Below, one piece after another: positions 2,017 to 64,000 of a stretch of DNA of 64,000 nucleotides. Within the stretch, counting starts at the first letter, position 1; the number at the start of each line of letters is the position of its first letter. Source of the DNA: a virus; the IMG/VR virus record IMGVR_UViG_3300043399_000633, positions 1 through 64,000 of that record; one strand, given 5' to 3'. The notes beneath the pieces were generated by a model. It made no database searches and was not told the origin of the DNA. It was given only the letters and a program-made list of their open reading frames with translations. Position numbers and translations under genes: made by a program.

Positions 2017-5000
2017 ATGGCATCTGAACCATTCAATTCTGCGGGTGGCTTTAGTGTAGGCATACCAGCTAACACTGTTATCGACGCAAACGGCAATGTC
2101 GTTACAAACGTAATGATACCTAACGGCAACGTAGTTGCTAATAACATATCTACTAACAATTTTGTTGTAACAGATAATGTTAATTTAGGTGACATTTTAA
2201 ATGTTACAATTTATGGTGGTGATAATGGCTATTTCTTGCAGACAGACGGAACAGGCAATTTAACTTGGGCCGCCGGCGGCAATGGTGGTGGTGGCAATGG
2301 AACACCCGGCGGATCGAATACTCAAGTACAGTTTAACGATGCAGGTGAGTTTGGTGGATTTGCCGGCTTTACTTTTGATAAAACAACTGGCAATTTAAAT
2401 GTACCTGGAAATGTTATTACCAATGGATTAGTGACATTTGATGCCACCGTAACAGGAGATTTGATAGCAAATACAATTACGTCTAGTGGTAATGTATATG
2501 CAGAATATTTCTATGGTGATGGTAGTAATTTAACAAACATATCAGGTATATCTGGTAGCTCTGGTAAATCAGGTTATAGTGGTCCTTCAGGATGGTCAGG
2601 TTTTTCAGGTCTATCTGGATTAAGTGGTCTATCTGGATTAAGTGGTTATTCTGGTTCAGGTATATCAGGATTTACAGGTATAAGTGGCACTTCAGGCATA
2701 TCAGGTTTTTCAGGATTGTCAGGTTTTTCAGGCAGATCGGGATTGTCGGGTTGGTCTGGCGCTAGTGGTTTAACAGGTGTATCGGGTAAATCAGGATTTA
2801 GTGGATTAGGATTAAGCGGGTTTTCAGGTGCATCTGGATTTAGTGGGTTTTCAGGTAAAGGTATTCAACTTGCAGGAAGCGTATTTGATTATACATTTCT
2901 TCCAAATGGACAACCACAAGGAGTGGTATTTATCATACTAAATGCAGGTGGAGGATACAATGCAGGTGACGGTGCAGTAAGTAACGGTAACAATACATGG
3001 TCTAACATAGGACCATTACAAGGACCTTCTGGCTTTAGTGGAACAAGTGGCTTTAGTGGTGAATCAGGTATCAGTGGCTTTACAGGTGAATCAGGTATCA
3101 GTGGGTTTAGTGGTACATCGGGTATATCGGGTGAATCTGGTATATCAGGTTTCAGTGGCACTTCAGGTATATCAGGTATAAGTGGTATAAGTGGATTCAC
3201 AGGAGTCAGTGGTTGGTCTGGTGTTTCGGGAACCAGTGGCATTTCAGGTACCAGCGGTACATCAGGTATTACAGGCGTAAGTGGCTGGTCTGGTATTTCG
3301 GGAATTAGTGGTACGTCGGGTGTTTCTGGTATATCTGGTATATCAGGATGGTCTGGTACTAGCGGCATTTCAGGTGTTAGCGGATTCACAGGAGTCAGTG
3401 GTTGGAGTGGTGTTTCGGGAACTAGTGGTACTTCTGGTACTTCAGGCACTAGTGGAACTTCAGGCACTAGTGGAACTTCAGGTTGGAGTGGTATTAGCGG
3501 TTGGAGTGGTACATCGGGTGCATCGGGAACTACAGGTGTAAGTGGATTTACTGGCATAAGTGGTTGGTCTGGTACCAGCGGTACATCAGGGGCAAGTGGA
3601 TTCAGTGGTACATCAGGGGCAAGTGGATTCAGCGGTGCATCAGGTACCTCAGGATTTAGTGGTATTAGTGGCACTACTGGTATTTCTGGTACGTCCGGTT
3701 GGTCTGGTACATCTGGTTGGTCTGGTACGTCCGGTTGGTCTGGTACATCTGGTTGGTCTGGTACCAGCGGTATATCAGGAGTAAGTGGATTCAGTGGAAC
3801 ATCAGGTACTACAGGTGTAAGTGGATTTAGTGGATCAGGTGTAAGTGGATTCAGTGGAACATCAGGTACTACAGGTGTAAGTGGATTCAGTGGAACATCA
3901 GGTACTACAGGTGTAAGTGGATTTACAGGTGTAAGTGGATTTAGCGGAACATCAGGTGTAAGTGGATTCAGCGGTGCCAGTGGTATAGCAGGTGTCTCAT
4001 CAACTATATTTGAATATTTTGCTGATACGACTGCTACTTCAGGTGATCCTGGTAATGGAGATATATTATGGAATAATGCGACACAAACCAGTGCCACAGC
4101 AATTAATGTAAGTATGATTACCAACGATGGTATTGATATTGACATTTACTTAGCATTATTAGACAAAACAGAAGTCATTACATTACAAGATAAGATTCAG
4201 AGTAATAATTTTCAACGTTGGGAAATCAATGGAACCCCTACAAATCAGACAGGATATTGGATTTTTCCTGTAACGCTATTATCTTCAGGTGGCACTGGAA
4301 CTACTGGATTTACTAATGGAACTGAATTGATTCTTGCTCTAGTGCAAGGCGTAAGCGGAGCGTCAGGTATTAGTGGCACATCAGGTATTAGTGGCTTCAG
4401 TGGTAGATCGGGTTGGAGTGGTACGTCCGGATTCACTGGTATAAGTGGATTCAGTGGCACTACTGGTACAACAGGTGTAAGTGGATTTAGTGGTACTACA
4501 GGTGTAAGTGGATTTAGTGGTACTACAGGTGTAAGTGGATTTAGTGGTACTACAGGTGTAAGTGGATTTAGTGGTACTACAGGTGTAAGTGGATTTAGTG
4601 GCACTACTGGTATAAGTGGATTTAGTGGCACAAGCGGTACAACAGGTGTAAGTGGATTCAGTGGTGCAAGTGGTACTACTGGCGTAAGTGGATTCAGTGG
4701 TACATCAGGTATTTCAGGAACATCAGGTGTAAGTGGATTCAGTGGTACATCAGGTATTTCAGGAACATCAGGTATTTCAGGAACATCAGGTATTTCAGGA
4801 ACATCAGGTTGGAGTGGATTCAGTGGTACATCAGGTATTTCAGGAACATCAGGTATTTCAGGAACATCAGGAACCACAGGTATAAGTGGTTGGAGTGGTA
4901 CAAGTGGTGTATCGGGATGGAGTGGTGTATCAGGATGGAGTGGTGTATCGGGTATTTCAGGAACATCAGGTACTACTGGTATAAGCGGTTGGAGTGGCAC

Positions 5001-14940: not shown

Positions 14941-15392
14941 TTATTATTTCACCCTATGCTAAGTTCATGCGTAATGGACAGAAACATCCTAAAAATTATC
15001 CTTTTTGGCAAGAAGTTATAAATCACATTGCTGAGCCCATTGTTCAAGTGGGAGTAGAAGGTGAACTACCATTAGTCAGCGATTTTAGAAAAAATTTACC
15101 CTTAAGTGAATTAGCTGAGTTAGTCAAATCATGTAACACTTGGATAAGCTGTGATAGTTTTTTTCAACATTTCTGTTGGGATTTAGGAAAGCCGGGCATT
15201 GTTATTTTTTCGCAATCAGATCCTAACATTTTTGGTCACCCCGAAAACGTAAATTTGCTCAAAGATAGAAAATATTTGCGTGAGAAACAATTTTGGATAT
15301 GGGAACAAGCAGAATATAACGAAGAATCGTTTGTACATCCTCAAGTTATACTACATTCTTTAGCTGTGAGATTTAACGTAGAACTAAAATAA
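14937..15392 (+). CDS. GT9 (ADP-heptose transferase)-like C-terminal domain protein
   Basis: KNYPFW, LSELAELVK, ISCDSFFQH, GKPGIVIF pattern typical of the GT9 C-terminal Rossmann domain. Confidence 0.65.
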   Translation: MIIISPYAKFMRNGQKHPKNYPFWQEVINHIAEPIVQVGVEGELPLVSDFRKNLPLSELAELVKSCNTWISCDSFFQHFCWDLGKPGIVIFSQSDPNIFGHPENVNLLKDRKYLREKQFWIWEQAEYNEESFVHPQVILHSLAVRFNVELK

Positions 15393-30579: not shown

Positions 30580-30654
30580 GCGCTTGTAGTTTAGTGGCAG
30601 AATCAGGGTCTCTAAAGCCCACAGGCATGGGTTCGAATCCCATCGAGCGCACCA
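30580..30654 (+). tRNA. Amber suppressor tRNA, anticodon CTA
   Basis: Acceptor GCGCTTG/CGAGCGC + ACCA; D-loop AGTGG; anticodon loop CT-CTA-AA (30610-30616) on a GGGT/GCCC stem; T arm ATGGG-TTCGAAT-CCCAT. Confidence 0.88.
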
Positions 30655-58404: not shown

Positions 58405-58481
58405 GGGCCATTAGTTCAGTTGGTAGAACGCCTGCCTTGCAAGTAGGATGTCGTGGGTTCGATTCCCACATGTGTCCACCA
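58405..58481 (+). tRNA. tRNA-Ala(TGC)
   Basis: Cloverleaf; CCTGC-CT TGC AA-GTAGG; G3-U70; one bulged nucleotide in the acceptor stem. Confidence 0.88.
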
Positions 58482-58490
58482 AAAACAAAC

Positions 58491-58530
58491 TGGGATTATT
58501 GTCAGTCAGGTCAGACGGCTCAGTTCGAAG
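58491..58530 (+). pseudogene. 5' fragment of a tRNA truncated at the anticodon loop
   Basis: TGGGATT + D-arm GTC-AGTCAGGTCA-GAC + CTCAG TTCGAA; no 3' half; HNH cassette follows. Confidence 0.4.
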
Positions 58531-58580
58531 TAACCGTTCAACATTCTTCGTTTGTGATAAATACATCAAGGAGAATAAGT

Positions 58581-59045
58581 ATGTTACTTCAATCATCTAA
58601 AATCAAGTGCAGGCACTGTGAGAAATTAATTTTTCCGCATAGTGTCACCAGGCACGATGCGGTGTGTCATCTTCACCCGGACAATATAAGACTATGTAAG
58701 ATATGTAACGAGCCAATTTTTAATTGGCGAGAATCAAAGGGAACATGTTCACATGCATGTGCTAATAAGCTGTTCAGAACAGGTGAAAATCATGGGAATT
58801 GGAAACCAGAACGGTATCAAACTACTTGTTTTGAACACCATGAAAGAAAATGTGTAGTATGTGGGGAAGATAAAGTAGTTGCGGTCCATCATCTAGACCA
58901 TAGCAAGAAAAATAATCACCCTTCAAACCTGATTCCAATGTGCCCGACGCATCACCAATATTGGCATAGTAAGTATAGAACATTAATTGAGGATAAGGTT
59001 CTATCTTACATAGAATCTTGGAAGAAAAAGAATAACTCTCTATAG
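58581..59045 (+). CDS. HNH homing endonuclease
   Basis: CVVCG...VHHLD...NNHPSNLIPMCPTHH..WH; GATAAATA and AGGAG upstream; stop lies inside tRNA-Pro. Confidence 0.85.
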   Translation: MLLQSSKIKCRHCEKLIFPHSVTRHDAVCHLHPDNIRLCKICNEPIFNWRESKGTCSHACANKLFRTGENHGNWKPERYQTTCFEHHERKCVVCGEDKVVAVHHLDHSKKNNHPSNLIPMCPTHHQYWHSKYRTLIEDKVLSYIESWKKKNNSL

Positions 59046-59290: not shown

Positions 59291-59367
59291 TGGGGTGACA
59301 TACGACGGGAAGTATACTGGGCTTTGAACTCAGGTCTTAGTCGGTTCGAATCCGACCACCCTTGCCA
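59291..59367 (+). tRNA. tRNA-Gln(TTG), second divergent copy
   Basis: CTGGG-CT TTG AA-CTCAG; GTCGG-TTCGAAT-CCGAC; GCCA end. Confidence 0.85.
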
Positions 59368-59404
59368 AATTTTTTGTCAGCATAGTTTGTCACTAAATAG
59401 TGAT

Positions 59405-60229
59405 ATGAATATTTCCTATGCTGATAATGGATGGACTGTGTTCATCAACGATGATCTAACCACATTGTCTAACGACGAAATAAAGCAAGTTGCTAAATTC
59501 GTTGTTACAAATATGGTTGTTGTGTTCAAAAAACAAAACCTTACTCCAGAACAGGAATTAAAATTCTGTAGAGTGATAGGCAATCACCAGTACTACCCTG
59601 CTTCGTATGAACGAGGAAAGCATATCAGATTGAATGACGGTATACTTAGGGTGACTGGTAAAAAAAATGAATATGGCGAACCTGGACTTTTTGGCCATAC
59701 TTCTGCACTTGATTGGCATGCCAATCAACCTAGTAACAAAGAACGTAAGCCATTGATTTGGTTGTACGGTGCAGAAGGGACTAAGGGTTCAAGAACAAGC
59801 TGGCTCAACAATATTGCTAGCTATCAGGATTTGCCCACTGATCTCAAAAATGAAATTGATAGTCTACAAGTTTTTTGTGGATACGCAAAAGGCAAGTATT
59901 CTAATAGTTCTTATTTTGTAGAACATGTCAATGAGTCTAATCCCATTGATCTTGTTCAAACAAACAAAGAAGGTAAGAAGGGATTGTTTTTTCCATTCTT
60001 ACAAATATTCGGCTTTAAAGATAAAGACGAACAGTATTTCAACAAAATAATGCAACAATTGATCGATCATGTCGTTCAAGAAAAGTACATGTATCATCAT
60101 GATTGGGATGACGGAGATGTTGTCATTTCAGAACAAATATTAAGCATCCACAAACGTTGGGCTTTTGATGATATGGAAAATCGTGTGTTGCATAGAATTG
60201 CGTTTGACTATTCAAACGTATACAAATAA
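59405..60229 (+). CDS. TauD/TfdA-family dioxygenase-like protein
   Basis: VVFKKQNLTPEQ, WHAN, WDDGDVVISE...HKR...RVLHR; start moved to ATG 59405. Confidence 0.8.
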   Translation: MNISYADNGWTVFINDDLTTLSNDEIKQVAKFVVTNMVVVFKKQNLTPEQELKFCRVIGNHQYYPASYERGKHIRLNDGILRVTGKKNEYGEPGLFGHTSALDWHANQPSNKERKPLIWLYGAEGTKGSRTSWLNNIASYQDLPTDLKNEIDSLQVFCGYAKGKYSNSSYFVEHVNESNPIDLVQTNKEGKKGLFFPFLQIFGFKDKDEQYFNKIMQQLIDHVVQEKYMYHHDWDDGDVVISEQILSIHKRWAFDDMENRVLHRIAFDYSNVYK

Positions 60230-60989: not shown

Positions 60990-61061
60990 AAATTGAGAAC
61001 TTCAATGAACACGAGGAGTTTAATTCATGAAGCGTCCTTCATGGTCTCATTCAATTTCTAT

Positions 61062-61140
61062 TCCGCGGAATCCGAGCGTGGTGCACGGACTTGACTGTTA
61101 ATCAATGACTAGCTGGGATCGTCACCCAGACGCGGAGCCA
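61062..61140 (+). tRNA. tRNA-Asn(GTT)
   Basis: TTGA-CT GTT AA-TCAA; TCCGCG/CGCGGA acceptor; atypical T loop ATCGTCA. Confidence 0.8.
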
Positions 61141-61184
61141 AACATTAAGACTTTAAATAATCATACTTAAAGTCTGACTAATGG

Positions 61185-61252
61185 TTGACAATAATTCGTG
61201 CAGGTGCTACAATACATGCATGAGTTGAGAAATCAACTAGTTCTTTATACAA
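61185..61252 (+). promoter_or_regulatory. Sigma70 promoter with boxB/boxA-like leader
   Basis: TTGACA-17-TACAAT, then AGTTGA-GAAA-TCAACT hairpin and GTTCTTTATACAA. Confidence 0.7.
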
Positions 61253-61319
61253 TTTAACGGTTTCAAGGTATTACGTTAAAGAGACACTGGGTTTTCACTA
61301 GTGTTCGTTGACGTAACGT

Positions 61320-61424
61320 GATACCATATTTCAACGCATTAGTGGAGGTTTGCTCAGTAATAGCAACCTTTAAATGAGATGGCTCTGATCTTATCACGCC
61401 AATAGTGTGTTGAAATATGGTATC
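61320..61424 (+). ncRNA. Conserved-stem RNA cassette A
   Basis: GATACCATATTTCAACGCATT ... AGTGTGTTGAAATATGGTATC. Confidence 0.65.
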
Positions 61425-61425
61425 G

Positions 61426-61509
61426 GGAGGTTTGGCAGAGCGGTCGATTGCGCCTGACTGTAAATCAGGTCTTAACAGCACGGTGGTTCGAATCCATCAG
61501 CCTCCACCA
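61426..61509 (+). tRNA. tRNA-Tyr(GTA)
   Basis: CCTGA-CT GTA AA-TCAGG; variable arm; ACCA end. Confidence 0.92.
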
Positions 61510-61515
61510 ATTATC

Positions 61516-61614
61516 GGGCACGTAAGCATCTAGCGGAAGATGCTACTCGCTGTGTTGCCATGAATACAGCAAATAAGGAGGAGAGTGCAGGTTCGAGTCC
61601 TGTCGTGTCCACCA
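61516..61614 (+). ncRNA. tRNA-like RNA with alanine identity and enlarged D and anticodon arms
   Basis: GGGCACG/CGTGTCC-ACCA (G3-U70, A73); canonical T arm; no 7-nt anticodon loop. Confidence 0.65.
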
Positions 61615-61620
61615 AAACAA

Positions 61621-61698
61621 TCCTTGAGTTTGACTGGTCTGCGCGCGGCTTGTTAATAGTTGGGAATGTCACTTTCGACAGTGACCTCAAGGGCCCCA
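61621..61698 (+). ncRNA. Degenerate tRNA-like RNA
   Basis: TCCTTGAG/CTCAAGGG stem; GTCACT-TTCGAC-AGTGAC T-like arm; ends CCA. Confidence 0.4.
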
Positions 61699-61704
61699 AG
61701 TTAT

Positions 61705-61820
61705 GGAGATAGAAACTGACAGATTGAATTAAGTCCTCGTGGAGGCGGATACTGGTTCAATGGTCAGCGGATAACGTGGACGGCGTATGGGTCATGCCTA
61801 TACGCAGGCGGTCTCCACCA
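61705..61820 (+). ncRNA. CCA-terminated structured RNA
   Basis: GGAGAT/GTCTCC-ACCA acceptor-like end; internal CTGAC/GTCAG and GCGTATGGG/CCTATACGC stems. Confidence 0.5.
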
Positions 61821-61825
61821 AGATA

Positions 61826-61902
61826 TAGGCTTTAGAGTGATTGGAAATCCTATCTCTTTCATGAGGAGATGTTGCGAGGTTTGAATCCTCGATAGCCCAC
61901 AC
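61826..61902 (+). pseudogene. Degenerate tRNA with CAT anticodon
   Basis: ATCTC..TTCATGA..GAGAT arm; CGAGG-TTTGAAT-CCTCG; imperfect acceptor and no clean CCA. Confidence 0.45.
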
Positions 61903-61988
61903 AAGTATCCCACACACATCGAATGGTGCGGTAAGGAATCAAGAGATTCTGTCGTGGGAAGTCTAGCAAAAAGCCGTGACGGCTAGAC

Positions 61989-62065
61989 ACCATAGTTCAG
62001 CACATTTTGAAGAAACCCGAGGTCTTCTACGACGGGACGGGGCTCTTAGTGTGCTGAACTATGGT
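61989..62065 (+). ncRNA. Conserved-stem RNA cassette B
   Basis: ACCATAGTTCAGCACATT ... AGTGTGCTGAACTATGGT. Confidence 0.65.
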
Positions 62066-62111
62066 AAAGGAGTAATTAACCTCAACCATACTCGGAAGTC
62101 ATGACTCCGAG

Positions 62112-62240
62112 GACCCGTGGTAGTTTAATGGCAAAATGAGAGAGATGATGGGTTCGTGACCCATCCGTCCTTAGTCGGGGCGTAGGTTAAGTGTAAACCG
62201 CAGACAGATGAGGGTTTCGAAACCCCTCCCACAATGGGTT
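62112..62240 (+). ncRNA. Double-elbow tRNA-like RNA (two D/T arm sets, no anticodon arm)
   Basis: D1 GTTTAATGGCAAAAT, T1 GATGGG-TTCGTGA-CCCATC, CGTCC/GGGCG stem, D2 GGTTAAGTGTAAACC, T2 GAGGG-TTTCGAAAC-CCCTC, closed by ACCC-GTGG/CCAC-AAT-GGGT. Confidence 0.55.
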
Positions 62241-62320
62241 AATATTCAAATTGCTAAAGTAAAATGCTAAAAACCTCAAGTAAATGATAAATAGTTACAC
62301 AACTACTATAGCATTTTACT

Positions 62321-63025
62321 ATGAATTACAAGAACATTTACCATACTCTGATTACTAGAGGCAAAGAAAGAAAGATTGAATCTGAATATAAGGAAATACA
62401 CCATATTATTCCTCGTTGTTTGGGTGGATCAGATGAGATAGAGAATCTGGTCGAACTAACTCCAGAAGAACATTATGTTGCCCATCAACTCTTGATAAAA
62501 ATCTATCCAGATAATCATTCTTTAATTTACGCAGCAAGGATGATGATTGTCAATCGTCCATCAAATAAATTGTATGGCTGGCTTAGAAGAAAATACGCCG
62601 AAGCGGTGTCAATAAATCAAACTGCCGAAGGGAATTCTCAACACGGAACTAAATGGATAACAAATTTACAGGGCGAACAAAAGAAAATAGAAAAAAGTTT
62701 GGTAATTCCCGAAGGATGGGTTGCAGGTAGAAAAAAATTGAGCACTTGTAAATATTGTAACGCATCGTATCTAAAAATTACTAATACAATATTTTGTTCA
62801 GTGATTTGTAAATCATCTTATACTCAGGAAATATTGAGTACTCGGATGAGTAGTAATAACCCAATGAAGGACCCATCTGTTGCTAAAAAGCAAGCAGATA
62901 AGGTAAGAGGTAAGAAAAAGAGCCCACACAAGAGAAAACGAACAGAGGATCACAATCAAAAATTATCGGTTGCGTCGAAGTTGGTCTGGGAAAAAAGAAA
63001 ACAATCTAAAGTGGCGGTAGACTAA
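62321..63025 (+). CDS. HNH homing endonuclease (T4 Mob-like)
   Basis: EIHHIIPRCLGGSDEIENLVELTPEEHYVAHQLL; GATAAATA upstream. Confidence 0.88.
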   Translation: MNYKNIYHTLITRGKERKIESEYKEIHHIIPRCLGGSDEIENLVELTPEEHYVAHQLLIKIYPDNHSLIYAARMMIVNRPSNKLYGWLRRKYAEAVSINQTAEGNSQHGTKWITNLQGEQKKIEKSLVIPEGWVAGRKKLSTCKYCNASYLKITNTIFCSVICKSSYTQEILSTRMSSNNPMKDPSVAKKQADKVRGKKKSPHKRKRTEDHNQKLSVASKLVWEKRKQSKVAVD

Positions 63026-63077
63026 TTGGATAAGTCGCGGCGAAATGGTGGTTTCGAAGTCCACCCCACAATGGGTT
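63011..63077 (+). repeat. Diverged duplicate of the 3' half of the 62112-62240 RNA
   Basis: Shares GTAG..., GGTTTCGAA and CCCACAATGGGTTA, with compensatory stem changes. Confidence 0.65.
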
Positions 63078-63179
63078 ATTATATTTCAGCGCATTAGCAC
63101 TGGCTGCTACCACAGTCAGACGTATTGGTAGATATGCTGGGCAACAACGCCGCCCGGGTAGTGTGCTGAAATATGGTAA
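63076..63179 (+). ncRNA. Conserved-stem RNA cassette C
   Basis: TTATTATATTTCAGCGCATT ... AGTGTGCTGAAATATGGTAA. Confidence 0.65.
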
Positions 63180-63277
63180 GCCTTAATCCAACTGAGGAAC
63201 AAAAGATCGTCAGAGTCGCGTCTGGTAAAGATCAAGTAGTTCCAATTAGGTGACTCAAGGCTGGTTCCCGGCGGGGA

Positions 63278-63414
63278 GCCATATTGAAGCACATTTCTTG
63301 GCTAGTAGCGGAAAGAATACTTAATCGGGTCAACGAGCCTTTACTCCTCCCGAAGAACGGTATCGTAAAGATATAAGGACCGTCTATGTATTGTGAAGTG
63401 TGTTTCAATATGGT
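63278..63414 (+). ncRNA. Conserved-stem RNA cassette D
   Basis: GCCATATTGAAGCACATTT ... AAGTGTGTTTCAATATGGT. Confidence 0.65.
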
Positions 63415-63522
63415 ATGAGAGCCTCTTCAACGACCAGAGTGTCTATTATTGTTGTGGAGATAAAATAGTAGACCGATCTAGATTGGGCAGTGTCCACTAC
63501 TCATAATTTGCTCATACCATTT

Positions 63523-63611
63523 ACCATATTAAAACACATTAGCCTACCTCCACCGAGAGGTAGTTAAAGATAATGACAAGCAACAGCCAGTGTGTTTCAT
63601 CGAGACATGGT
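63523..63611 (+). ncRNA. Conserved-stem RNA cassette E (3' arm partly degenerate)
   Basis: ACCATATTAAAACACATT ... AGTGTGTTTCATCGAGACATGGT. Confidence 0.5.
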
Positions 63612-63700
63612 CTTACTCAAGGATCGCGGTGTTGGGAAGAACGGGAATACATAACCGTCTGTAAGCAATCCTGCACATTGAGAGGGGGTGGAATTCCCCC

Positions 63701-63858
63701 ACCATATTAAAACACATTAGCCTACCCAAGGGCTTGTAGACAGTGGTTGGAAGGATCTACACAAGTGCTATCGCAAGAGGCAGGAACCATCCAGGTGGTG
63801 CTGGACCCTGCGGGGGCTTCGAAATCCTCAGATAAGCCGTAGTGTGTTTTAATATGAT
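63701..63858 (+). ncRNA. Conserved-stem RNA cassette F
   Basis: ACCATATTAAAACACATT ... AGTGTGTTTTAATATGAT; first 26 nt identical to cassette E. Confidence 0.65.
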
Positions 63859-63962
63859 AAGGATACATATGTTGTATGATATTTGATGGAACACCATGCT
63901 TTCTCATGTCATATAGCAAAAGTGGCAGGTTTGTAGCGTACCTGTTGTATAAAAACGCTATG

Positions 63963-64000
63963 ATCATATTGAAACACATTGATCCTAACGATTGTTTAGG
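63963..64000 (+). ncRNA. Conserved-stem RNA cassette G (5' arm only; runs off the window)
   Basis: ATCATATTGAAACACATT matches the 5' arm consensus. Confidence 0.5.

What the first reader, a model, noticed from the sequence alone, without database searches (positions are those of the whole stretch)
62112..63077. Double-elbow tRNA mimic targeted by an HNH gene, with its 3' half duplicated
Seen: the order D1-T1-closed stem-D2-T2 within one closing helix and no anticodon arms; the T-stem-D core resembles the permuted tRNA domain of YrlA-type Y RNAs. After the HNH gene, 63011-63077 repeats the 3' half with compensatory changes (GGTT/AACC to GACT/AGTC; GAGGG/CCCTC to GGTGG/CCACC) and identical CCCACAATGGGTTA. 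The HNH stop codon lies within this copy. Inference: the two alleles provide internal covariation support, and homing into the locus while preserving an intact copy implies the RNA matters.
Basis: partly seen in the sequence, partly recalled or inferred. Interest (0 to 1): 0.7.

Follow-up and report, generated by a model that had tools for sequence, protein, structure and literature searches.

The report
Two-bodied anticodon-less phage tRNA mimic
A lake jumbo phage encodes a conserved small RNA built as a tRNA frame with a second, back-to-front tRNA body where the codon-reading arm should be. It cannot decode, probably works by imitating tRNA, and the neighbouring HNH gene is a separate selfish insertion.

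Summary
Window 62112-62240 holds a closing helix, D1, T1, a closed stem (M), D2 and T2, with no anticodon arm. 63013-63077 repeats the 3' half, and the HNH stop codon (63023-63025) lies in its D arm.

The RNA is real. I found 32 distinct full-length homologues in uncultured freshwater phage contigs, always in tRNA/ncRNA islands. 97% of pair cells are paired, 21 of 39 pairs show double compensatory changes, and 0 of 500 shuffles match this.

A tertiary (Levitt-type) covariation links D2 to the base before T1 (G-C 16, A-U 13). So the fold is a tRNA frame (P1+D1+T2) enclosing a permuted, YrlA-like tRNA body (T1+M+D2). One natural variant has a plain hairpin in place of the inner body.

Two upstream hairpins with self-complementary loops belong to the unit. 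Rfam has no such family.

The HNH gene is MobE-type. A second phage carries the same gene and the same junction but no intact RNA in its 53-kb fragment, so "homing preserves the RNA" is not supported.

Function is untested. A non-decoding tRNA-body decoy or scaffold is my best inference. This scan has noted the same two-bodied design on other phage DNA before.

The parts
62060..62090 (+). Hairpin P(-1), with 9-nt loop AGUAAUUAA (62071-62079) holding the self-complementary core UAAUUA. Its outer pairs overlap the 3' arm of the preceding long-stem cassette.
   Evidence: RNAfold predicts a hairpin here in every homologue examined, on different stem sequences. Within the RNA island of the 96.9-kb record, the loop motif occurs only here.
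62091..62111 (+). Hairpin P0 (6-bp stem, loop AGUCAUGAC with palindrome GUCAUGAC). It abuts P1 directly.
   Evidence: 3 of its 6 pairs show double compensatory changes and 100% of cells are paired. Homologues carry other palindromes in this loop: UAAUUA, GUAAUUAC, UAGCUA.
62112..62120 (+). P1 5' strand GACCCGUGG (acceptor-like closing helix). It is followed by UA at 62121-62122, in the place of tRNA U8 and A9.
   Evidence: Pairs with 62229-62240 as 5 + 4 bp around an AAU bulge. The sequence is almost invariant in 32 homologues.
62123..62137 (+). D1 arm (GUUU / AAUGGCA / AAAU).
   Evidence: 2 of 4 pairs show double changes. Loop A14, A15 and GG are conserved.
62138..62146 (+). Linker L1 (GAGAGAGAU), purine-rich. 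Its last base is the '48' partner of D2 loop base '15'.
   Evidence: D2-15 against the last L1 base: G-C 16, A-U 13, U-A 1, A-A 1.
62147..62165 (+). T1 arm (6-bp stem, loop UUCGUGA; family consensus UUCGAAU).
   Evidence: 3 of 5 pairs show double changes. D1 to T1 gives sub-threshold tRNA hits in homologues.
62166..62182 (+). M, the closed acceptor-like stem of the inner body. It is followed by UA at 62183-62184.
   Evidence: All 5 pairs show double changes. In most homologues M has 7 bp, so T1 + M make 12 bp, as in a tRNA minihelix.
62185..62199 (+). D2 arm (GGUU / AAGUGUA / AACC).
   Evidence: 3 of 4 pairs show double changes.
62200..62209 (+). Linker L2 (GCAGACAGAU). Its last U is the '48' partner of D1 A15.
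   Evidence: A-U in 30 of 31 parsed members; the exception is a parsing artefact.
62210..62228 (+). T2 arm (GAGGG / UUUCGAAAC / CCCUC). The 9-nt loop variant is conserved.
   Evidence: 4 of 5 pairs show double changes: GAGGG, GGUGG, GGCAG, UGAGG, UCUAG.
62229..62240 (+). P1 3' strand CCAC-AAU-GGGUU. No CCA is encoded after it.
62299..63025 (+). MobE-type free-standing HNH homing-endonuclease gene (ORF 62321-63025, 234 aa) plus a 22-nt leader, shared with contig G001.
   Evidence: Pfam HNH 25.2 bits against a cut-off of 21.4. phrog_655 'homing endonuclease' 166 bits. The T4-like homologue sits between nrdA pieces. 97% nt identity to G001, with the left edge at about 62299.
63013..63077 (+). Orphan 3' half of a second allele: M 3' strand GGCGG, UA, D2', L2', T2' and the P1 3' strand. 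It lies directly before the next cassette arm, as the 3' end of intact alleles does.
   Evidence: 72% identical to copy 1; closest to alleles in other phages (L013 86%, L009 85%). CM score 41 bits, partial. Junction shown.

Best explanation
Window 62060-62240 (+) encodes one member of an undescribed family of about 180-nt phage non-coding RNAs. Shown: the core is a tRNA-shaped frame, made of an acceptor-like helix P1, arm D1 and arm T2. [quoted passage not shown] The two bodies are joined only by two purine-rich 9-10-nt linkers, so there is no anticodon and no encoded CCA. Two hairpins with self-complementary loops precede the core. Inferred: the RNA is cut out of the long transcript of the tRNA/ncRNA island. 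It acts as a tRNA-body mimic, offering two elbows and a 12-bp minihelix to proteins that recognise tRNA shape. The most likely role is an uncleavable decoy or competitive inhibitor, or a scaffold, for tRNA-directed host or phage enzymes. The HNH gene is an unrelated MobE-type selfish element. Its insertion broke a second allele at the loop of stem M, and 63013-63077 is the leftover 3' half.
For: Family: 32 distinct full-length homologues from IMG/VR and JGI metagenomes, scoring 128-167 bits with model R1. One copy was found in each contig searched in full. They always lie among tRNAs. GOLLD, a permuted tmRNA and a cobalamin riboswitch lie nearby in some contigs. Fold: the RNAalifold consensus gives P0, P1, D1, T1, M, D2 and T2. 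97.2% of cells are paired, 21 of 39 pairs have double changes, 0 of 500 shuffles reach this, and slid controls give at most 55%. About 49 G-U cells fit only the + strand. Topology: D2 loop base 15 covaries with the base before T1 (G-C 16, A-U 13, U-A 1, A-A 1). The cis combinations do not covary. A natural variant (L276/L290) keeps P(-1), P0, P1, D1 and T2 but has a 6-bp hairpin in place of T1-M-D2. Sub-threshold Rfam hits fall as expected: YrlA on T1-M-D2 and tRNA on D1..T1. Expression hint: contigs from two lake metatranscriptome runs of one study cover 62040-62136, and one joins 62128 to 63043, which fits an HNH-free relative. Decoy idea: the authors of PMC7790460 propose that the YrlA tRNA-like domain, which the anticodon nuclease does not cut, may inhibit that nuclease competitively. 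HNH.
Against: No function has been tested. The RNA-library evidence consists of contigs from relatives; DNA carry-over is not excluded and no RNA ends are known. One phage fragment (G001, about 15% of its genome) has only the broken allele, so the RNA may be dispensable there. One lineage lacks the inner body. In the window copy, the two loops of the inner elbow depart from consensus: T1 UUCGUGA lacks A58, and D2 AAGUGUA lacks GG. P1 has 9 bp with a bulge rather than a 7-bp acceptor, so tRNA enzymes that measure the acceptor may not accept it. The near-invariant P1 sequence suggests one specific, still unknown partner rather than general mimicry.
Confidence: 0.5

Rival explanations
1. It is a Y RNA. 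The near-invariant bulged closing helix P1 binds the phage's own Ro60-like protein, and the tRNA-like bodies are the effector module, as in Rsr-YrlA particles.
For: The same RNA island ends with a 471-aa DUF2828+DUF7788 protein (G000 76159-77574; phrog_850 'RNA-binding protein'). In its model the top 13 Foldseek matches are all Ro60/TROVE structures (E 3.7e-7, TM about 0.5). The gene is present in 5 of 22 RNA-bearing contigs, 6-16 kb from the RNA. T1-M-D2 gives sub-threshold YrlA hits. A single-elbow YrlA-like paralogue exists in the same genome.
Against: No such gene lies in the 191-kb or 70-kb contigs that carry the RNA mid-contig, nor in a 72-kb contig rated 69% complete. P1 lacks the GNCGAAN0-1G motif of YrlA (motif from PMC4201824; sequence). 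It also lacks the ACAGCAA handle of the island's other Y-like RNAs. The protein model is of low confidence (pLDDT 59).
Confidence: 0.15
2. It is a self-assembling RNA. The two hairpin loops with self-complementary cores form loop-loop (kissing) contacts between copies, giving dimers, chains or rings that display many tRNA elbows.
For: Both loops hold 6-8-nt palindromes in most members. Four different palindromes occupy homologous positions: UAAUUA/GUAAUUAC, GUCAUGAC, UGAUCA and UAGCUA. The loops are not complementary to each other. Within the island these motifs occur only next to this RNA. Small and large phage-associated RNAs that multimerise through kissing loops are known: manA, GOLLD, ROOL.
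Against: Exceptions exist: the L005 group has only GAUC, L282 has an inserted A, and L012 has AAUUGA. Palindromes could instead be DNA-level protein sites. No oligomer has been observed. This reading does not exclude the decoy reading.
Confidence: 0.15
3. It is a processing punctuation mark. The tRNA-like bodies only recruit RNase P or RNase Z to cut the polycistronic island transcript and release the flanking cassettes.
For: It lies between two long-stem cassettes in nearly all contigs. P0 ends in U and P1 starts with G, the preferred -1/+1 pair for RNase P (background knowledge). T1+M form a 12-bp minihelix. M. smegmatis YrlA is cut by RNase P at the equivalent site (PMC4201824).
Against: Ordinary tRNAs in the island would already serve this role. 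The near-invariant P1, L1 and L2 sequences, the two elbows and the palindromic loops are far more than a cleavage signal needs.
Confidence: 0.1
4. One reading: the HNH element homes specifically into this RNA gene and brings or keeps a replacement 3' half so that an intact RNA survives, as integrating elements do at tRNA genes.
For: The HNH ORF ends inside the D arm of a 3' half in both genomes that carry it, at the same junction. The break falls at the loop of stem M. MobE relatives are known to split genes (Aeh1 nrdA, from memory).
Against: G001 has the HNH gene and the 3' half but no 5' half and no intact copy in its 53-kb fragment. In the window the intact RNA lies wholly upstream of the insertion and owes nothing to the orphan half. 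The two halves are only 72% identical. 78 other relatives of the HNH gene are not next to this RNA.
Confidence: 0.12
5. It is decaying DNA: two tandem tRNA pseudogenes that lost their anticodon arms, with no function as an RNA.
For: The tandem D-T, D-T order resembles a tRNA dimer. The YrlA authors warn that dimeric tRNAs can mimic the T-stem-D order (PMC4201824).
Against: There are 32 members with compensatory changes in every arm, a covarying tertiary pair, and invariant linkers and closing helix. Indels are confined to the M loop.
Confidence: 0.02

Closest known systems
YrlA (Y RNA-like A, Rfam RF02553; Chen et al. 2014, PMC4201824)
   Same: The inner module has the same order: T arm, closed acceptor-like stem, then D arm. 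The 15-48 (Levitt) pair covaries, and T stem plus closed stem make a minihelix of about 12 bp. It occurs in phages, and sometimes in an island that also encodes a Ro60-like protein.
   Different: Here the permuted body is not held by a Ro60-binding stem. It sits inside a second, normally ordered tRNA frame (P1, D1, T2). There is no GNCGAA motif. Rfam scores are at most 32.9 bits against a gathering score of 69, and the window copy gives none. The Ro60-like gene is absent from several large contigs. Two palindromic-loop hairpins are attached.
Canonical tRNA (Rfam RF00005)
   Same: U8/A9-like UA, 4-bp D stems with A14 and GG loops, 5-bp T stems with UUCGAAU loops, and the T stem continuous with the closing helix.
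   Different: There is no anticodon arm and no encoded CCA, although neighbouring tRNA genes encode CCA. The closing helix has 9 bp and an AAU bulge. There are two D arms and two T arms. ARAGORN and Rfam do not call it.
MobE-type free-standing HNH homing endonucleases of T4-like phages (T4 mobE; Aeh1 mobE, which splits nrdA)
   Same: phrog_655 and Pfam HNH match. It is a small free-standing ORF between or inside conserved genes and is polymorphic among related phages. The T4-like homologue lies between nrdA pieces.
   Different: Here the interrupted gene is an RNA gene, and the ORF borrows its last five codons and its stop codon from it. Cleavage specificity is unknown.
Two-bodied, anticodon-less tRNA mimics noted earlier by this scan in other phages (e1-5322502, e1-6050838, e1-5643330, e1-5847739)
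   Same: The design is the same: a tRNA frame with a permuted tRNA body in place of the anticodon loop.
   Different: Those notes describe a shared anticodon stem, and in some cases aminoacylation identity elements or CCA. This family has only purine-rich linkers, a bulged 9-bp closing helix without CCA, and two palindromic-loop hairpins. No sequence similarity to them was tested.

Membership tests
tRNA (RF00005) | Anticodon arm with a 7-nt loop | tested here: not met
   D arms are joined to T arms by 9-10-nt purine-rich linkers, which cannot pair with each other. ARAGORN finds nothing.
tRNA (RF00005) | 7-bp acceptor stem with discriminator and CCA end | tested here: not met
   P1 is 5+4 bp with an AAU bulge and is followed by GCC, ACU, AUU and similar. 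Neighbouring tRNA genes, such as the tRNA-Tyr gene, encode CCA.
tRNA (RF00005) | D and T arms with the conserved elbow bases | tested here: met
   A14, GG and UUCGA are conserved in both sets in most members. Partial tRNA hits of 25-35.5 bits fall on D1..T1 in homologues. The window copy's inner elbow deviates.
tRNA (RF00005) | Rfam gathering score (29 bits) for the whole element | tested here: not met
   No hit at E<=10 in the window. Only one homologue (L004) has a partial match above 29 bits.
YrlA (RF02553) | Order T arm, closed acceptor-like stem, D arm | tested here: met
   T1-M-D2 is present in 32 members.
YrlA (RF02553) | Covarying 15-48 Levitt pair within the permuted body | tested here: met
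   G-C 16, A-U 13, U-A 1, A-A 1.
YrlA (RF02553) | Rfam gathering score (69 bits) | tested here: not met
   Best scores are 32.9, 28.9, 27.3 and 24.6 bits in homologues; none in the window.
YrlA (RF02553) | GNCGAAN0-1G Ro60-binding motif on the 5' strand of the terminal stem | tested here: not met
   The P1 5' strand is GACCCGUGG in nearly all members. The motif is as given in PMC4201824.
YrlA (RF02553) | Encoded next to a Ro60/TROVE gene | tested here: inconclusive
   A Ro60-like gene lies 6-16 kb away in 5 of 22 contigs. It is absent from three large contigs. All records are fragments.
MobE-type HNH homing endonuclease | HNH catalytic motif and family profile | tested here: met
   PF01844 25.2 bits, above the 21.4 cut-off. 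phrog_655 3.2e-48.
MobE-type HNH homing endonuclease | Free-standing gene, present in some and absent from other related genomes at the same locus | tested here: met
   Two genomes carry it and 32 alleles lack it.
MobE-type HNH homing endonuclease | Cleaves the HNH-free allele near the insertion site | not testable with these tools
   This needs the purified enzyme and allele DNA.
Kissing-loop (DIS-like) dimerisation hairpin | Self-complementary 6-nt or longer core within a loop of about 9 nt | tested here: met
   UAAUUA, GUCAUGAC, UGAUCA and UAGCUA occur in most members, with a few exceptions.
Kissing-loop (DIS-like) dimerisation hairpin | Dimer formation | not testable with these tools
   This needs native gels, SEC-MALS or cryo-EM.

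The most novel reading that the evidence does not exclude
The RNA is a self-assembling tRNA decoy. Its two palindromic kissing loops join copies into dimers, chains or rings, and the assembly displays arrays of uncleavable tRNA elbows. These would soak up a tRNA-directed host defence nuclease or a processing enzyme during infection. That would make it a small relative, in principle, of the multimeric GOLLD, ROOL and manA RNAs found in the same kind of phage islands.
Probability: 0.1. Interest if true: 0.85.

Novelty: new variant of a known kind. Interest (0 to 1): 0.68.

Why it matters
tRNA mimicry by small RNAs is known from tmRNA, YrlA and a few bacterial motifs. A tRNA frame that carries a second, permuted tRNA body, with the domain pairing fixed by tertiary covariation, appears in neither Rfam 15 nor any paper I could search. 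Large phages invest many kilobases in tRNA/ncRNA islands whose non-tRNA members are unexplained. This family is small (about 130-190 nt), has a clear testable fold, a natural one-body variant as a control, and candidate oligomerisation loops. That makes it a practical entry point for asking what non-decoding tRNA look-alikes do in the contest between phages and tRNA-targeting host defences. The MobE-type insertion adds an example of a homing-endonuclease gene that breaks an RNA gene and borrows its stop codon from it.

Tried and rejected
- Rfam at E<=10 on 61000-64000 found nothing on the element.
- blastn against 50,697 cultured-phage records found only the HNH gene, nothing, or short T-arm matches.
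- My pattern was mis-spaced by one base and gave only chance hits.
- The patterns returned many coding-sequence chance hits, which I sorted out by eye and with the model.
None of the 80 loci returned matched the model. This is a weak test, not proof of absence from cells.
- The supplement of the 10,006-csRNA catalogue (PMC10690425) is not held, so I could not check whether the family is listed there without a name.
- The three newly solved bacterial tRNA mimics (skipping-rope, DUF2693-FD, salivarius-1) are single L-shapes with other connectivity and did not match.
- The Ro60-like protein has no sequence-level match in the PDB. Its model is of low confidence, so the Ro60 fold match is only moderate evidence.
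- RNA-run depth: there was no cover over the HNH gene in the two RNA runs. They hold relatives, not this phage, so this says nothing about HNH expression.
- I looked for a remnant of the 5' half upstream of the HNH gene in G001 and found only a doubtful GTTCG...CATC resemblance, which I rejected.
- I considered that L1 and L2 form a shared anticodon stem. They are not Watson-Crick complementary. A short non-canonical G-A/A-A stack remains possible but untested.
Full report
**Setting.** The window is the first 64 kb of a 96.9-kb IMG/VR virus record. CheckV rates it 27% complete, which implies a jumbo phage. From about 58 to 75.4 kb it carries an RNA island with 41 tRNA genes, several HNH genes and many unannotated structured elements. 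The finding lies inside this island.

**The observation.**
- 62112-62240 contains a closing helix (GACCCGUGG / CCAC-AAU-GGGUU), a D arm, a T arm, a closed stem, a second D arm and a second T arm. There is no anticodon arm.
- The 234-aa ORF at 62321-63025 is an HNH protein.
- 63013-63077 repeats the 3' half with compensatory changes in the D and T stems and the same 14-nt end.
- The stop codon at 63023-63025 lies in the repeated D arm.

ARAGORN and Rfam do not call the element. The folding energy of the single sequence is no better than that of shuffles (z = 0.18). Whether this is more than chance therefore had to be decided with relatives.

**Relatives.** Exact-pattern scans of IMG/VR and of JGI metagenome contigs, followed by a covariance model (R1), gave 32 distinct full-length homologues scoring 128-167 bits.
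- All come from uncultured, mostly lake or freshwater, phage contigs.
- All lie among tRNA genes. Some contigs also hold a GOLLD RNA, a permuted tmRNA or a cobalamin riboswitch nearby.
- Contigs searched in full have one copy each.
- Nothing was found in cultured phages by blastn, nor in the 80 bacterial loci that a loose pattern returned.

**Secondary structure.** On that alignment:
- 97.2% of pair cells are standard pairs, and 21 of 39 pairs have changes on both sides.
- No shuffle out of 500 reaches any of the five measures.
- Sliding the partners by 1-3 columns drops pairing to 30-55%.
- Every arm covaries: P0, D1, T1, M, D2 and T2.
- The closing helix P1 does not covary, because its sequence is almost invariant.
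- About 49 G-U cells show that the plus strand is the RNA, the same strand as the tRNAs.

**Which D loop meets which T loop.** In tRNA, D-loop base 15 pairs with base 48, the last base before the T stem (the Levitt pair). I tabulated these positions.

| Pair tested | Result |
|---|---|
| D2 base 15 with the base before T1 | G-C 16, A-U 13, U-A 1, A-A 1 |
| D1 base 15 with the base before T2 | A-U throughout |
| The cis combinations | A-C or G-U in half the members; no covariation |

The switches are scattered among otherwise similar members, so they happened several times. One member (L014) also swaps the T1-loop 54-58 pair from U-A to A-U.

So P1, D1 and T2 form one tRNA-like body. T1, M and D2 form a second, circularly permuted body that sits where the anticodon arm would be.
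- M usually has 7 bp. T1 + M therefore make the 12-bp minihelix of a tRNA, closed by a loop.
- Rfam's YrlA model hits exactly this module in four homologues at 24.6-32.9 bits, far below its threshold of 69.
- Its tRNA model hits D1..T1 at 25-35.5 bits.

A natural variant supports this reading. In L276/L290 the inner body is replaced by a plain 6-bp hairpin with a UUAU loop, while P(-1), P0, P1, D1 and T2 are kept.

**Additional parts.** Two hairpins precede P1 in every member examined: P(-1) at 62060-62090 and P0 at 62091-62111.
- Their stems differ in sequence between members.
- Their 7-9-nt loops hold self-complementary cores: UAAUUA or GUAAUUAC, GUCAUGAC, UGAUCA, UAGCUA. There are a few exceptions.
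- The two loops of one molecule are not complementary to each other.
- Within the RNA island of the 96.9-kb record, the loop motifs occur only here.
- This is the architecture of kissing-loop dimerisation hairpins. I report it as a lead, not a result.

**The HNH gene.**
- It matches phrog_655 'homing endonuclease' at 166 bits and Pfam HNH.
- Its T4-like relatives lie between pieces of nrdA, the position of mobE.
- Only one other contig, G001, has a close copy (97% nt, 98% aa).
- The near-identical block runs from about 62299 to the junction AAAGT|GGCGGTAG. The D arm then differs by compensatory changes (GACU/AGUC against GCUU/AAGC), and similarity resumes over L2, T2 and the P1 3' strand.
- In both genomes the ORF takes its last five codons and its stop (TAA here, TAG there) from the RNA gene. 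The break falls at the loop of stem M.
- G001 has no 5' half upstream and no intact copy in its 53 kb, which is about 15% of that genome.
- Two independent lake DNA runs contain contigs with G001's flanks, so this arrangement is not an assembly artefact.
- In the window the intact RNA lies wholly upstream of the insertion. The two 3' halves are 72% identical, and each is closer to alleles in other phages.
- The orphan half sits directly before the next cassette arm, where intact alleles end.
- None of 78 more distant HNH relatives lies next to this RNA.

The simplest reading is a MobE-type element that broke one allele of the RNA gene. It has since moved or recombined within islands that are full of repeated cassette arms. 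It gives no evidence that homing is arranged to spare the RNA.

**Function.** Nothing has been tested. The RNA cannot decode and has no encoded CCA. What it offers is two tRNA elbows, a closed 12-bp minihelix, a near-invariant bulged helix and two possible dimerisation loops.

My best inference is that it acts as a tRNA-body mimic that occupies or scaffolds proteins which recognise tRNA shape.
- The authors of PMC7790460 suggest that the uncleaved tRNA-like domain of YrlA could competitively inhibit an anticodon nuclease. That is the closest stated precedent.
- It fits a phage that carries 41 tRNAs of its own.

The Y-RNA reading has some support.
- The island ends with a DUF2828+DUF7788 protein.
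- Although its model is of low confidence, its top 13 Foldseek matches are all Ro60/TROVE structures.
- The gene is in 5 of 22 RNA-bearing contigs.
- Against this, the gene is missing from a 191-kb and a 70-kb contig that carry the RNA mid-contig. The RNA also lacks the YrlA Ro-binding motif.

Contigs from two lake metatranscriptome runs of one study cover the P(-1)/P0/P1 start. One joins 62128 to 63043, as an HNH-free relative would. This is a weak hint of expression in relatives, no more.

**Novelty.** I found no such RNA in Rfam 15 or in the papers I could search. The three bacterial tRNA mimics solved in 2026 are single L-shapes with other connectivity. The 2023 IMG/VR catalogue of 10,006 candidates may list it without a name; its supplement is not held. 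This scan has itself noted the same two-bodied design several times on other phage DNA. The present family differs from those notes in three ways: it lacks a shared anticodon stem, it has a bulged closing helix without CCA, and it carries the two palindromic-loop hairpins. I rate it a new variant of a known kind, namely tRNA-mimicking small RNAs.

Noticed in passing
window 61323-61423, 61988-62067, 63079-63178, 63279-63415, 63523 onward, 63701-63860, 63963 onward: An array of elements closed by one conserved 17-20-bp stem (5' CCATATTGAARCACATTA, 3' TAGTGTGYTTCAATATGG) around unrelated interiors. The same arms flank the two-bodied RNA in nearly all homologous contigs. Rfam gives no hit at E<=10.
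   Followed up: partly
window 61515-61616 and 61738-61812: Two odd tRNA-like genes with an encoded CCA end. Rfam's tRNA model does not match them. The first (GGGCACG...CGTGTCCACCA) has a 6-bp D stem and a long central insert, and gives weak tmRNA-like partial hits.
   Followed up: no
L071:2113-2229 (G000 66113-66229, beyond the window); also L068 (G001 15185-15341): A single-elbow permuted tRNA-like RNA: a closing stem, ACAGCAAC, a hairpin, T arm, closed stem, D arm, then CAAGAAAU. It gives a sub-threshold YrlA hit of 29.9 bits and looks like a true Y-RNA-like paralogue.
   Followed up: partly
L071:12159-13574 (G000 76159-77574): A 471-aa DUF2828+DUF7788 protein at the end of the RNA island. 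The best structural matches of its model are all Ro60/TROVE proteins. The family is very large in metagenomes (more than 7,700 hits at E<=1e-10).
   Followed up: partly
L290:1-165 and L276:2990-3188 (minus strand): A natural one-body variant of the family. The inner T1-M-D2 module is replaced by a 6-bp hairpin (CUCCGG-UUAU-UCGGAG), and all other parts are kept.
   Followed up: yes
L007:4804-5219; L004:4041-4439; L014:2163-2280: Homologous phage contigs carry a GOLLD RNA (179.7 bits), a permuted tmRNA (118 bits) and a cobalamin riboswitch (94 bits) within a few kb of the two-bodied RNA.
   Followed up: no
window 30580-30654: A lone tRNA with anticodon CTA (called tRNA-Pyl by ARAGORN; 59 bits with the Rfam tRNA model). 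It would be an amber suppressor and lies among protein genes, far from the island.
   Followed up: no
window 58437-59045 and 59324-60229; L071:1124-1852 and 4033-4593: Three further HNH genes and a TauD-family dioxygenase gene are interspersed in the tRNA island. The first HNH ORF overlaps both the tRNA-Ala and the tRNA-Pro gene ends.
   Followed up: no
window 62153-62159 and 62189-62195: In the window's intact copy, the two loops that should form the inner elbow both depart from the family consensus. T1 is UUCGUGA (no A58) and D2 is AAGUGUA (GUG instead of GG). This may be a paired change or the start of decay.
   Followed up: no
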